Shown here piece after piece: positions 15,001-18,000 of a stretch of DNA of 38,396 nt. Position 1 is the first letter of the stretch; every line of letters begins with the position of its first letter. A program made the position numbers. Origin of the DNA: a virus (Duplodnaviria > Heunggongvirae > Uroviricota > Caudoviricetes); IMG/VR virus record IMGVR_UViG_2675903536_000019; one strand, written 5' to 3'.

Positions 15001-18000
15001 GCAGCACCTCCCGGTGTCACCGTACTGCGACGCGCTAACTGTTTAATACGTGGATCAGGGCTGTCGAATGTATCCGGTAATGGCAGTCCCTCACCGTATG
15101 ACATACCATTGGACTGACCAGCAAGCGCGATCACATAGTAATATTCTGGCGCAACAGAAGGCGCTGAGGTCGTCGGACGGTTGCCTGGCTCCTCTGGTGA
15201 TGAGATGCTCCCCTCACTCACAACTGGCTGGATGATCTCCGCACCATAACCAGCTGTCGAAATCAGCGCACTACCATAAGGCTGCCACCCTTCCTTCAGT
15301 TTTTGAGTTATTCGTTCCGCAAGGTCTGACGGCGACGCCGCCCTGACCACGTCATAGTGTTTAAATGCCATGAATCCTCCCGGCCGGGATAATGTACTGA
15401 ATAAGATAAGGAGTGAGCGGAAGTCCCGAAACACAAGGGAAAAAGACAACCACCCGCAAAAAAGAAATACACTCCTCACAGTTGCGCAGGGTGATTACTG
15501 TAAGGTATTATTCGCAGCGTTAATTAATTGTTCATATTGCTTTTCTTCTTGCCAACCGCTCTTCCCGGGGCGGCTTTTTTTTGCATGTAAAAAGGCCCCT
15601 GCTATGAGGGGCCCTGATATATGCCTAATCTCTGTATACTGCATGGTGCCGGGTGCCTCCCGGTGAGTTCGGCCTGGTGCCACCAAACCCGCGTATTCTC
15701 GCTTACGATCATCAAAGAGATCATACCATTCACCAGTCGCCCCTCCGCACAGGGGGATTCACCATGCAGGATTTTTTTAACAAATTCGCAGCCAAGCAGA
15801 CAACCGTCAACTACCTGAATTGTGAGTGATTTAACATTTCACTGCCCAGTGTCTTCCCCTCATTAAAAAGCCCCTCCGGAGAGGGGCTGGAGAGTAGCGC
15901 TATGTACCGTTCATTGCATGGTGCCGGGTGCCTCCCGGTGAGTTCAGTATCAGCACCTGAACCCGCACAGAAAGGATAGAGGTAAAACAGAAACACCTGT
16001 GACGCTGATATGCCCCGCCGCTCAGGGGGATTCACCATGCAGAAATTTTGTAGCACATCTATTATCAGACAGGCAACAATCAACTGACTGAATTGAGATG
16101 TATTTAACATTGATAAATCTCCGCCTGTTCTCTTCACCGGGCTATTCTGAGTCAACGGAAAATAACCTCGCTGAATCCCCCTCCATTATGACAGGCATTA
16201 GTTTTAATGGTTACCGTCATCCCCGTAATTTGTGCACTGAGAAGAAGAGACTGAAGATTCCATCTGTTAGTAAATAATTCTTTATCTCCCACTTTAACTG
16301 TAAAGGTATCGTCATCATTATATTTTGTATACTCCACCTTCCCAGTTACACAATCTGGCGCAGCCAGCACACTTGCTGAAAAAAATGAAAGTGATGCAGC
16401 TATTAATAATATTTTTTTCATTTTACCCCCCTCAACTGCTAATAGCCCTGCGTATCAAAATTGCCCCCAGAGTGGATGAGTCCCACAATATTTTATTGTG
16501 CGTAATCCCACGCACTCTTCCATCTACCGGGCACATAGAAGGAAACTCATTAGGTACAATTCTGGCAACTCGCGATGCATGATGATGACAATTCAGTATT
16601 AATGCCACGCTACCCAGAATTGCATTAACACTTCCAAAAGAAATTCTTCCAACACGAACAGAGTCTTGTCCATGATAGTCAGGCAGGACACTACTCAACC
16701 TTCCCCAGTTCAACGTAAGATCAACATCTTCAGCAGTCATTACATAAGAACGCCCACTGAGATCATCAAGTGTTGTACGAAATCCCCTCTGAATTTGCCG
16801 AAAACGTAAAGCTTCAGCTGTCACAGTAACAAACCGTAACATCGCTCTTGCCACAGACTGCGTCAGTGAGGTTCCGCTATGCGACATTAAATCCAGATAA
16901 GAAGTAGTCAACGAATGGCGATTTATCTGCATCCCCGTACGACTGATCCCCGCAACACGCTGTAACGTGGTATAGCTACTGTCACCAGACAATGTAACCG
17001 CAGTTGTACCAGGAAAGGTAACATGTGAAAAATCAGCAAAGCGATAAAAAACATTATTTGTCCTGTTAACAAATCCTGTCACATATAAATTATTTCGTTC
17101 AACAATAAGCCGTAGATTATTAAACCGCCCTTCCTCTGGATCTATCCCTCTGACATCAACTGCAAACAAATTATCCCCTGTGCCACTATCAATCATCAGT
17201 AAAGACGTACCTCCTGATGAAATAGTCTGTAATGGAGTACCTATTGCAGAGCGAATGACATTCAGCGAATCTACATACGTCTTTGCTGTCGAGAAATCTA
17301 AGGTAAATTCCTTCGCAACCACATTAACAGAAAAGATAACAAAGAAAAAAGTTAGCACTCTAAAAATTATTATTTTCATATTACACAATACTCCTTGAGC
17401 GCCATACGATAACTATATTCTTGACATCCTCCACGCCCTGAAGGACGGCGTTTTACGGCGCACCGGATAAACGTAACAATAACGTAATGAAAATGATAAT
17501 CATATTCAAAGAGAGCTGCAACCTTAACATATCTGGTCAGATCTCATGCGACTACTTGACGTACGTAGACAACAACATTTATTGATACACAGGATGTTAC
17601 GGACATAAAAAAAGCCAGCCACTGGGGGAGGCTGGCAAACTCGTAGAGCAAAATGCTGTTACGCAAACTTCGTTACAGGGTCATCCTGCAATACTTAAAA
17701 TATACAATATTTAGAAAACTAATAGTGCTATATGCGATTTTTAAGATTTTGTTATTAATTACGGTCGCACCTTCCTTTCTGTGTACTTTCCGTATAGCTC
17801 ACAGGATTCTGGGTACAAAAAAACCCGCGCATCGGCGGGTTAAGCAGCGTAGCAATGTAACCACTCTTATCATGATATGCAGATTTTTACGATCGTAAAC
17901 TATTTTTTCGCTGATAAAATACAGAGGTTCTCCCTCCCGGCAATTCACGCTCAACATACCGATCCATCTCAAGCCTCACTCCCAGCATCATCAGCATGCC

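What the first reader, a model, noticed from the sequence alone, without database searches (positions are those of the whole stretch)
15641..16110. Two diverged copies of an inverted-repeat-bounded element between stx1B and nanS-p
Two elements of about 127 nt, spaced 274 bp apart, each start with tgcatggtgccgggtgcctcccggtgagtt and end with gggggattcaccatgca(g). This gives 9-bp terminal inverted repeats and an internal GC hairpin. Their flanks are also duplicated but diverged. No ORF explains them and the layout is not CRISPR-like. They could be MITE-like insertions, duplicated structured RNAs, or recombination scars, placed exactly where toxin-gene cargo is exchanged.
Basis: seen in the sequence. 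Interest (0 to 1): 0.55.

Follow-up and report, generated by a model that had tools for sequence, protein, structure and literature searches.

The report
Two tandem STnc100 small-RNA genes
The two "inverted-repeat-bounded elements" downstream of the Shiga toxin 1c genes are two tandem copies of a known, widespread prophage small-RNA gene (Rfam STnc100, also published as EcOnc27, sRNA103 and the related PasD), so the finding is real but ordinary.

Summary
The repeats are real, at the stated place, and far beyond chance.

They are not MITEs or recombination scars. They are two complete, same-strand (minus strand, like stx) genes of the Rfam family RF02076 STnc100, scoring 198 and 139 bits against a threshold of 47.

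Each ~255-nt unit has a conserved upstream block and ~70-nt leader, a ~127-nt structured core, a ~30-nt tail and an intrinsic terminator. The "9-bp terminal inverted repeat" is the closing helix P1 of the core. The "GC hairpins" are helices P2 and P5. The "diverged flanks" are the leader and the tail with terminator.

The distal copy is the orthologue of EcOnc27/sRNA103, an Hfq-bound ~235/247-nt RNA found downstream of stx2B in O157.

The family occurs throughout Enterobacteriaceae and in prophages, often in tandem arrays of 2-4. The same pair sits in a non-Stx prophage, and there homology ends exactly at the 5' edge of the proximal unit. The pair therefore marks the boundary of the toxin cargo.

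My added result is that the core is a five-helix fold with a strongly covarying pseudoknot and a nearly invariant hairpin, CCGGGAGGCACCCGG. Neither the Rfam consensus structure line nor the papers I read show this pseudoknot.

Function beyond Hfq-dependent riboregulation remains unknown.

The parts
15583..15796 (-). Distal STnc100-family sRNA gene (next to nanS-p), as delimited by the Rfam model. It is the orthologue of EcOnc27/sRNA103.
   Evidence: Rfam RF02076: 198.4 bits, E=1e-46, model positions 1-206 of 206. The EcOnc27 northern probe GGCCTTGGTATATGCCTAATCTCTGTATACTGCAT (PMC4104026 supplement) matches the + strand at about 15606-15643 with 2-3 mismatches.
15858..16069 (-). Proximal STnc100-family sRNA gene (next to stx1B), as delimited by the Rfam model.
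   Evidence: Rfam RF02076: 138.7 bits, E=1.9e-31, full length. By my visual comparison, its 5' leader closely resembles the EcOnc13 northern probe.
15641..15767 (-). Structured core of the distal copy (P1 to P1').
   Evidence: Own covariance model R1: 88.7 bits. The single-sequence minimum-energy fold reproduces P1-P5, -54.7 kcal/mol, z = -3.07.
15916..16040 (-). Structured core of the proximal copy (P1 to P1').
   Evidence: R1: 91.5 bits. The minimum-energy fold reproduces P1-P5, -47.1 kcal/mol, z = -1.46.
15731..15736 (-). Distal copy, 5' strand of the pseudoknot (CUGGUG). It pairs with the P4 loop CACCAG at 15674-15679.
   Evidence: All pseudoknot pairs show changes on both sides across the family. 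Alignment-free test: p <= 1e-4.
16004..16009 (-). Proximal copy, 5' strand of the pseudoknot (AUCAGC). It pairs with the P4 loop GCUGAU at 15949-15954.
   Evidence: Same tests. The two copies differ in sequence on both strands of this helix but keep the pairing.
15589..15614 (-). Intrinsic terminator of the distal copy (GGGCCCCUCAUAGCAGGGGCC followed by UUUUU).
   Evidence: It aligns to the terminator helix of the Rfam consensus. Read directly from the sequence.
15864..15888 (-). Intrinsic terminator of the proximal copy. It is the first terminator-like site downstream of stx1B.
   Evidence: Terminator scan: stem 15888-15869, 8 pairs, tail TTTTTAATGAG. It aligns to the Rfam terminator helix.
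15768..15838 (-). Distal copy: conserved upstream block (AATGTTAAAT, a -10-like sequence) and ~55-70-nt 5' leader.
   Evidence: The block AATGTTAAATnnnCTCACAATTCAG...GTTGAC is conserved upstream of 13 phage-type units. A transcription start about 7 nt after TTAAAT would give ~236 nt, close to the 235/247-nt EcOnc27 bands. This is an inference.
16041..16111 (-). Proximal copy: conserved upstream block and 5' leader. Its 5' edge at 16110/16111 is the boundary of the stx1c cargo.
   Evidence: Identity of 96.6% to the non-Stx prophage L127 runs over 13000-16110 and resumes at 17605.
15482..15582 (+). Convergent partner on the + strand. It comprises a promoter (TTGCGC at 15482-15487, then 18 nt, then TATTAT at 15506-15511) and a candidate ~66-nt sRNA at about 15517-15582, ending in the terminator at 15556-15582.
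   Evidence: A + strand terminator was found. The promoter aligns with that of AsxR in an Sp5-like locus and is conserved in 5 related loci. Convergent sRNA pairs at this position are described in PMC4104026 and PMC7873438. There is no Rfam AsxR or AgvB hit.

Best explanation
**What it is.** The region holds two paralogous, tandem, independently terminated genes for STnc100-family small RNAs. They are on the minus strand, the same strand as stx1AB, nanS-p and the lysis genes.

**Structure.** Each RNA is predicted to be ~230-250 nt. It folds into a compact core:
- P1 encloses P2, P3, P4 and P5. P3 closes a hypervariable insert.
- A pseudoknot joins the first bases inside P3 to the P4 loop.
- A ~30-nt single-stranded tail and a Rho-independent terminator follow.

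**Most likely mechanism.** This rests on published work on orthologues and was not tested here. The RNAs are bound and stabilised by Hfq at the tail and terminator, and they act in trans by base pairing with host and prophage mRNAs. The two copies share the invariant scaffold but differ almost completely in the insert, the pseudoknot sequence and the tail. They probably have different target sets.

**Secondary consequences, by inference.** The proximal terminator is the first one after stx1B. Toxin transcripts made in the lysogen therefore carry the proximal RNA as their 3' UTR and stop there. This insulates nanS-p and the lysis genes until Q-modified polymerase reads through.

The pair is a backbone feature that flanks the moron (cargo) insertion site. 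It is not part of the toxin cargo.
For: **Shown here**
- Both copies are full-length Rfam hits far above threshold.
- No other Rfam family matches, even at E<=10.
- Structure on 33 hand-picked seeds: 91.6% of cells paired, against ~40-45% for slid controls; 16 of 30 pairs have changes on both sides; 0 of 500 shuffles reach this.
- Structure on 130 distinct sequences aligned to my model: 90.1% paired, 23 of 31 pairs with double changes, covariation score 0.369 against 0.141 in shuffles and 0.04-0.075 in slid controls.
- Pseudoknot: each RNA's own strands pair at -9.28 kcal/mol on average, against -5.62 for strands taken from different RNAs; permutation p<=1e-4, n=65.
- Frequent G.U pairs on the modelled strand fix the strand.
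- Terminators are present.
- A conserved upstream block is present. In other genera I read TTGACN-17-TAAATT-like promoter motifs just 5' of P1, by eye and untested.
- The family is multi-copy and widespread: more than 120 loci among GTDB species genomes (capped), more than 120 viral contigs (capped), and 2768 of 5426 E. coli genomes.
- Tandem arrays of 2-4 copies recur.
- The same pair is present in a non-Stx prophage.

**From papers**
- EcOnc27 is Hfq-crosslinked, runs at ~235/247 nt, and its 247-nt form is destabilised in a hfq deletion strain (PMC4104026).
- It equals sRNA103, whose overexpression raises fimZ and espA transcripts (PMC7873438; PMC12711010).
- Eleven STnc100 copies are annotated in EDL933 with RNA-seq reads, and one is confirmed by northern blot (PMC5331693).
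- PasD, the divergent relative directly upstream of the esterase, shows Hfq-dependent stability and RIL-seq partners (PMC8550237; bioRxiv 10.64898/2026.05.13.724894).
- I recovered PasD's position with my own model, and its pseudoknot is intact.
Against: - No expression data exist for this Stx1c phage.
- The transcription start is inferred, not mapped.
- No direct target has been validated for any STnc100, EcOnc27 or PasD RNA.
- The scaffold is far more elaborate than usual for a base-pairing sRNA. It has five helices, a pseudoknot, invariant unpaired bases, and a P5 hairpin identical in about 70 of 74 distinct viral copies that were chosen only by their 5' motif. This suggests a specific partner that is still unknown.
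- In several genera the element lies 30-200 nt upstream of genes without a clear terminator, for example the KdgM porin gene. That looks more like a leader than like an sRNA gene.
Confidence: 0.85

Rival explanations
1. The conserved core is primarily a cis-acting or ligand- or protein-binding structured RNA. It could be a riboswitch-like attenuator, a processing signal or a decoy. Arrays would then form serial conditional terminators ahead of nanS-p and the lysis cassette, and Hfq binding would be secondary.
For: - The fold is complex, with a pseudoknot, invariant junction and loop bases, and an almost invariant P5.
- The element sits immediately upstream of holins of three unrelated Pfam families. 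In Klebsiella, Kosakonia, Citrobacter and Raoultella it sits 100-200 nt upstream of a KdgM porin gene, often without an obvious terminator.
- Each phage copy ends in a terminator.
- In the window, the P2 hairpin and the proximal terminator are 88% alike (family D3), so alternative pairings are conceivable.
Against: - In other genera, sigma-70-like motifs (read by eye) lie directly 5' of P1. A conserved upstream block precedes each phage unit.
- Terminator sequences differ between lineages, and no conserved alternative pairing is seen.
- The genes downstream are functionally heterogeneous.
- Q-modified polymerase ignores terminators.
- Relatives are Hfq-bound and form RIL-seq chimeras.
Confidence: 0.12
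2. The elements are MITE-like non-autonomous transposable elements bounded by 9-bp terminal inverted repeats.
For: Perfect 9-bp inverted termini and many copies per genome.
Against: - There are no target-site duplications. The flanks read ..TCCT|GCATGG...CCATGC|AGTA.. and ..TTCT|GCATGG...CCATGC|AATG...
- The termini covary as a helix: GCAUGGUG/CACCAUGC, GUGGUG/CACCAC and CAGAUG/CAUCUG, with G.U wobbles.
- The repeated unit is ~255-275 nt and includes the upstream block and the terminator, not just the stretch between the 'TIRs'.
- The location is fixed within prophage late regions.
Confidence: 0.01
3. The repeats are recombination scars or recombination hot-spot sequences left by moron exchange, with no RNA function.
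For: - The cargo boundary lies exactly at the 5' edge of the proximal unit.
- The units are mosaics. The VT1-Sakai copy has the proximal-type leader and tail but the distal-type core.
- The 100%-identical blocks could serve as crossover points.
Against: Selection acts on RNA pairing, not on DNA sequence. Orthologues are transcribed and Hfq-bound. Recombination at the conserved blocks is best seen as a consequence, not as the function.
Confidence: 0.02

Closest known systems
Rfam RF02076 STnc100 (Gammaproteobacterial sRNA STnc100)
   Same: Both copies match the whole 206-position model at 198 and 139 bits against a gathering score of 47. They share its helices and terminator. They are multi-copy and prophage-borne, like the 11 copies in EDL933 and the several copies in Salmonella LT2.
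   Different: Nothing essential differs. My analysis refines the model. P2 fits the covariation better in a register shifted from the Rfam one. G32 belongs to a 3-bp P3. A pseudoknot absent from the Rfam consensus line is supported.
EcOnc27 / sRNA103 (Hfq-binding sRNA downstream of stx2B in O157 Sakai and EDL933)
   Same: The distal copy has the same tail and terminator, since the northern probe matches with 2-3 mismatches. It has the same scaffold, the same position relative to the esterase gene, and the same convergent + strand partner promoter.
   Different: Here the toxin is Stx1c. A second, divergent paralogue lies between the toxin gene and the EcOnc27-like copy. The convergent partner is not AsxR.
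PasD1/PasD2 (EPEC prophage sRNAs; Pearl Mizrahi 2021; Zhu, Shabalina and Storz 2026 preprint)
   Same: Same position, directly upstream of the SASA (sialate O-acetylesterase) gene. The phage 2B8 copy shares P1-P4 and the pseudoknot.
   Different: PasD scores only 25.7 bits with my model and lacks the P5 hairpin, keeping only GGGAGGC. The window copies are canonical STnc100, not PasD.
AsxR / AgvB anti-sRNAs (RF02702/RF02703)
   Same: Same locus type, between pR' cargo and the lysis genes. The + strand candidate at ~15517-15582 shares AsxR's promoter and its convergent arrangement.
   Different: There is no Rfam match. The two repeated elements themselves are unrelated to these 51-60-nt RNAs.

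Membership tests
Rfam RF02076 STnc100 | Covariance-model score at or above the curated gathering score (47 bits) over the full model | tested here: met
   198.4 and 138.7 bits, model positions 1-206 of 206, both on the minus strand.
Rfam RF02076 STnc100 | Conserved multi-helix secondary structure supported by compensatory changes | tested here: met
   90-92% of cells paired, 16 of 30 and 23 of 31 pairs with double changes, 0 of 500 shuffles as high, slid controls 39-50% paired.
Rfam RF02076 STnc100 | Rho-independent terminator at the 3' end | tested here: met
   Terminator helices align. The proximal one is also found by the independent scan.
Rfam RF02076 STnc100 | Own promoter, that is, an independent transcription unit | tested here: inconclusive
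   A conserved AATGTTAAAT / GTTGAC block lies upstream, but the generic scan found no strong sigma-70 site there. The predicted length agrees with published northern blots. The proximal copy could also be made as the stx1 3' UTR.
Rfam RF02076 STnc100 | Expressed, Hfq-associated RNA of ~160-250 nt | not testable with these tools
   Only literature on orthologues: PMC4104026, PMC5331693, PMC8550237.
MITE / non-autonomous transposon | Target-site duplication flanking the terminal inverted repeats | tested here: not met
   The flanks of both elements share no direct repeat.
MITE / non-autonomous transposon | TIR sequence conserved as a transposase-binding site | tested here: not met
   The outer P1 pairs change on both sides while keeping the pairing, with G.U wobbles.
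Riboswitch or other cis-regulatory leader | Consistent position in the 5' UTR of a functionally coherent set of genes | tested here: inconclusive
   The KdgM porin gene lies downstream in several genera. Elsewhere the neighbours are holins, Rha, MarR or nothing. Phage copies form arrays with their own terminators.
Riboswitch or other cis-regulatory leader | Expression platform with a conserved alternative pairing | tested here: not met
   Inspected by eye only; no systematic search was run. Terminators differ in sequence between lineages, and P2/terminator similarity is seen only in E. coli phage copies.
AsxR/AgvB anti-sRNA | Match to RF02702/RF02703, including the conserved ~42-nt 3' region | tested here: not met
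   No hit even at E<=10.
tRNA / tmRNA | Cloverleaf recognised by ARAGORN | tested here: not met
   No tRNA or tmRNA gene anywhere in the window.

The most novel reading that the evidence does not exclude
STnc100 may not be just another Hfq sRNA. It may be a widespread structured RNA domain whose invariant features exist to bind a specific, still unknown partner: a protein, a metabolite, or the ribosome through the SD-like GGGAGG. Those features are the five helices, the covarying pseudoknot, the invariant GGUGAAUCC junction and the CCGGGAGGCACCCGG hairpin. Under this reading the domain is used both as a leader (for example of kdgM) and, in arrays, in the late regions of lambdoid prophages next to toxin cargo.
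Probability: 0.15. Interest if true: 0.7.

Novelty: already known. Interest (0 to 1): 0.28.

Why it matters
For this window, it shows that the stx1B-nanS-p spacer is not junk or a transposon. It is fully accounted for by three small-RNA genes, two STnc100 paralogues and a convergent AsxR-position partner, that belong to the phage backbone.

This matters modestly.
- SNPs in the stx2-linked orthologue were the strongest genomic predictors of haemolytic uraemic syndrome (HUS) in a 2025 machine-learning study (PMC12711010).
- Stx1a, Stx1c and Stx2 phages differ in the copy number and variable modules of this RNA, which may change what the prophage does to host regulation.

The refined structure, with its pseudoknot and corrected P2/P3, gives precise sites for mutation and compensation experiments. 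So does the observation that the cargo boundary coincides with the edge of the sRNA unit.

Tried and rejected
- **tRNA-like reading.** The 3' GGCACCA plus a stem abutting the closing helix looked tRNA-like. ARAGORN finds nothing and no Rfam tRNA or tmRNA hit appears, so I dropped it.
- **IpeX of DLP12 as a family member.** My model finds no hit in K-12 570-580 kb (L124), and nmpC lies on the other strand there.
- **Link to sialic acid.** I considered one through KdgM/NanC-type porins and nanS-p. The gene after the Kosakonia porin is a 569-aa secreted protein that I judged by eye to resemble a periplasmic pectate lyase. It is not nanM or nanS, and I ran no family search on it. No support.
- **Sigma-54 promoter in the leader.** This was prompted by RpoN ChIP data in Salmonella (PMC10794520). 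The GG-N10-GC spacing is not conserved among units.
- **Rfam's register for P2.** It fits the variants L021, L025 and L120 worse than the shifted register with a 3-bp P3, as judged by eye on the alignment. The shifted register then gave P2 100% paired cells with 3 double-changed pairs.
- **Small ORF after the SD-like GGGAGG.** The AUG in CACCAUGC is absent in most genera, which have CACCACA.
- **Target prediction.** Not attempted, because no host genome was available to the script environment.
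Full report
**1. Observation**

- A 31-nt exact repeat lies at 15640-15670 and 15915-15945.
- A second block lies at 15739-15785 and 16012-16058 (85%).
- Duplicated flanks lie at 15797-15838 and 16070-16111 (79%).
- Each element is bounded by the perfect 9-bp inverted repeat TGCATGGTG/CACCATGCA and holds two GC hairpins.
- The diagnostic 20-mer occurs twice, against 0.00 expected by chance.

The start is 15640, not 15641.

**2. Context**

The window is a Stx1c prophage. The region is 100% identical to phage phiSTEC1589-Stx1c (PQ600364) and to E. 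coli 2013C-3033.

All relevant genes are on the minus strand:
- Q antiterminator
- stxA1c, 16431-17378
- stxB1, 16152-16412/16421
- SASA family esterase (nanS-p), 13461-15371
- DUF1378 and DUF826 genes, then holin and lysozyme

The elements fill the 780-bp spacer between stxB and the esterase gene. Neither RefSeq nor the phage record annotates an RNA there. The phage record places two 'hypothetical proteins' across them.

**3. Identity**

Rfam gives two full-length minus-strand matches to RF02076 STnc100: 15796..15583 at 198.4 bits and 16069..15858 at 138.7 bits, against a gathering score of 47. Nothing else matches, even at E<=10, and there are no tRNAs.

- The 'TIR' is the 8-bp closing helix.
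- The GC hairpins are internal helices.
- The flanks are the 5' leader, and the 3' tail with its intrinsic terminator.

Segment identities between the two ~255-nt units:

| Segment | Identity |
|---|---|
| Leader | 72% |
| 5' block | 90% |
| Variable core | 45% |
| P4 | 64% |
| 3' block | 100% |
| Tail + terminator | 64% |

These are two old paralogues that share a scaffold. They are not a recent duplication.

**4. What is published**

- *Sakai.* Tree et al. 2014 (PMC4104026) found convergent Hfq-bound sRNAs 3' of stx2B in Sakai, namely EcOnc27 and AsxR/EcOnc02. The same layout occurs in eight lambdoid prophages including Sp15 (Stx1). EcOnc27 runs at ~235/247 nt, and the 247-nt form is destabilised without Hfq. 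Its northern probe matches the tail of the distal copy with 2-3 mismatches. By my visual comparison, the EcOnc13 probe closely resembles the leader of the proximal copy. The leader is therefore transcribed in a relative.
- *EDL933.* EcOnc27 is the same RNA as sRNA103, whose overexpression raises fimZ and espA. EDL933 carries 11 annotated STnc100 copies with RNA-seq reads, and one is confirmed by northern blot.
- *Clinical link.* Paganini et al. 2025 place HUS-predictive SNPs inside the stx2-linked STnc100/EcOnc27.
- *Vesicles.* A 2025 study of outer membrane vesicles finds STnc_100 75 nt downstream of stx2.
- *PasD.* Zhu, Shabalina and Storz (2026 preprint) relate STnc100 to PasD, which lies directly upstream of the sialate esterase gene. 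PasD shows Hfq-dependent stability and RIL-seq partners in EPEC.

The kind of element, and its position next to stx, are therefore already known.

**5. Distribution and arrays**

Rfam calls nearly all the tested ones STnc100.
- A 5' 14-mer finds more than 120 IMG/VR viral contigs.
- 2768 of 5426 complete E. coli genomes have megablast matches, with up to 10 places per genome.
- Tandem arrays are a family habit. There are 2-4 copies at 220-270-nt spacing in Superficieibacter and Enterobacter, in an O113:H21 prophage (four copies plus one), and in IMG/VR contigs L132, L183, L148 and L137.
- About 109 E. coli genomes have a place that covers at least 80% of the 571-nt tandem query. Twelve are 99% identical or more, and the first ten listed cover the whole query.
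- Stx1a phages such as VT1-Sakai have a single copy, with a spacer of 510 bp against 780 bp.

**6. Relation to the cargo**

A non-Stx prophage (FHI_NMBU_10, L127) carries the same pair. Its identity to the window is 96.6% over 13000-16110, and homology resumes at 17605. Between those points it has a DUF7661 gene instead of stx1c.

The toxin cassette is therefore 16111-17604, and its downstream edge is the 5' edge of the proximal sRNA unit.

The VT1-Sakai unit is a mosaic, with a proximal-type leader and tail but a distal-type core. This suggests gene conversion through the invariant blocks.

**7. Structure (new analysis)**

I worked from a 33-sequence seed alignment and from a covariance model built on it. 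With the model I aligned 134 hits from GTDB loci and 103 from viral contigs.

Helices, in columns of the alignment A1:
- P1: GUGGUG/CACCAC, extended to GCAUGGUG/CACCAUGC in E. coli phages.
- P2: pairs 15-31, 16-30, 18-29, 19-27 and 20-26. This register is shifted from Rfam's. It is favoured by the double changes in L021, L025 and L120, read by eye on the alignment. It gave 100% paired cells.
- P3: 3 bp, closing the hypervariable insert.
- P4: hairpin.
- P5: CCGGG-AGGCA-CCCGG.

Counts:
- 91.6% of cells paired, against 39-46% for slid controls; 16 of 30 pairs changed on both sides; 0 of 500 shuffles as high.
- 90.1% of cells paired, 23 of 31 pairs changed on both sides, covariation 0.369 against 0.141 (shuffles) and 0.04-0.075 (slid).

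A pseudoknot joins the 5-6 nt that follow the P3 5' strand to the P4 loop.
- In the window it is CUGGUG/CACCAG in the distal copy and AUCAGC/GCUGAU in the proximal copy.
- Every pseudoknot pair shows double changes.
- In an alignment-free test each RNA's own strands pair better than strands from other RNAs: -9.28 against -5.62 kcal/mol, permutation p<=1e-4, n=65.
- PasD of phage 2B8 keeps it, as AAUGAUC/GAUCAUU.

P5 and its flanks are nearly invariant even among copies selected only by the 5' motif, about 70 of 74 distinct sequences. Abundant G.U pairs fix the RNA strand as the minus strand. Single-sequence folds reproduce P1-P5.

**8. Transcription units**

In other genera I read a TTGACN-17-TAAATT-like promoter motif a few nt 5' of P1, by eye. 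In E. coli phage units a conserved block, AATGTTAAATnnnCTCACAATTCAG...GTTGAC, lies 60-70 nt upstream of P1.

A start about 7 nt after TTAAAT predicts RNAs of ~232-238 nt, roughly 16093 to 15862 and 15820 to 15583. This matches the published 235/247-nt bands. It is an inference.

The proximal terminator is the first terminator-like site after stxB. Toxin transcripts made in the lysogen should therefore end there and carry the proximal RNA as their 3' UTR.

**9. Mechanism and rivals**

Best supported: two Hfq-dependent, trans-acting sRNA paralogues with a common scaffold and different variable modules. As a side effect they insulate the late genes and mark the moron boundary.
- Identity: about 0.95.
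- Trans-acting mechanism: about 0.55, because no direct target is validated for any member.

The main rival, at about 0.12, is that the scaffold exists to bind a specific partner or to act in cis.
- For it: the complexity of the fold, the invariant unpaired bases, and leader-like contexts upstream of kdgM and of three unrelated holin families.
- Against it: the units appear to have their own promoters, the neighbours are heterogeneous, the terminators are not conserved, and relatives bind Hfq.

The MITE, scar, ORF and tRNA-like readings are rejected, for the reasons given under the rival explanations and in the tried-and-rejected section.

**10. Verdict**

Novelty: already known.

The tandem pair in Stx1c-type backbones, the exact coincidence with the cargo boundary, and the pseudoknotted five-helix model are useful refinements. 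They are not discoveries of a new kind. Interest 0.28.

Noticed in passing
window 15482-15582 (+): A candidate ~66-nt sRNA lies convergent to the distal STnc100 copy. Its promoter (TTGCGC, 18 nt, TATTAT) aligns with the AsxR promoter of Sp5-like phages, and its own terminator lies at 15556-15582. The body is unrelated to AsxR or AgvB, and there is no Rfam hit apart from a meaningless RyhB match at E=7. It could be a new anti-sRNA or sponge variant.
   Followed up: partly
window 31595-31723 (+): A third, degenerate STnc100-like element scores 28.3 bits with my model (E about 3e-6 in the window) and is missed by Rfam. It belongs to a second subclass whose P2 reads GCGGCUCAGCGCACGCG, as in L005, L013, L014 and L020. 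Its P5 is damaged (CACCUGGAGGCACC-GUCAG). A strong hairpin and T-run precede it at 31538-31579.
   Followed up: partly
window 20521-20611, 21453-21536 and 21562-21635 (all -): Rfam hits above threshold to sRNA-Xcc1 (68.6 bits), C4 antisense RNA (71 bits) and isrK (54.9 bits) cluster about 4-5 kb upstream of stx. This may be a C4/IsrK-type regulatory module; I did not examine the flanking genes.
   Followed up: no
L010 786-1832 and about 20 similar loci (Kosakonia, Klebsiella, Raoultella, Citrobacter, Enterobacter): A canonical STnc100 core lies 100-200 nt upstream of a KdgM-family porin gene (Pfam E=8.5e-74). A 569-aa secreted protein that I judged by eye to resemble a periplasmic pectate lyase follows. 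Often there is no clear terminator between the core and the porin gene, so this may be a leader-type use of the same RNA domain.
   Followed up: partly
L125 3581-4475 (E. coli O113:H21 FWSEC0010) and IMG/VR loci L132, L183, L148: Arrays of three or four tandem STnc100 genes at about 250-270-nt spacing lie upstream of the prophage esterase gene, each copy with a different variable core. In the papers I read I found no description of these arrays.
   Followed up: partly
L003 3158-3286 (VT1-Sakai) compared with window 15583-16111: The single Stx1a-phage copy is a mosaic of the two Stx1c copies, with the proximal leader and tail but the distal core. This implies exchange of the variable module through the invariant 5' and 3' blocks.
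   Followed up: partly
window 15739-15755, 15870-15886 and 16012-16028: The terminator hairpin of the proximal unit (CCCCUCUCCGGAGGGGC) is 88% identical to the P2 hairpins of both cores (repeat finder family D3). This allows alternative P2/terminator pairings in the E. coli phage copies only. Its significance is unknown.
   Followed up: no
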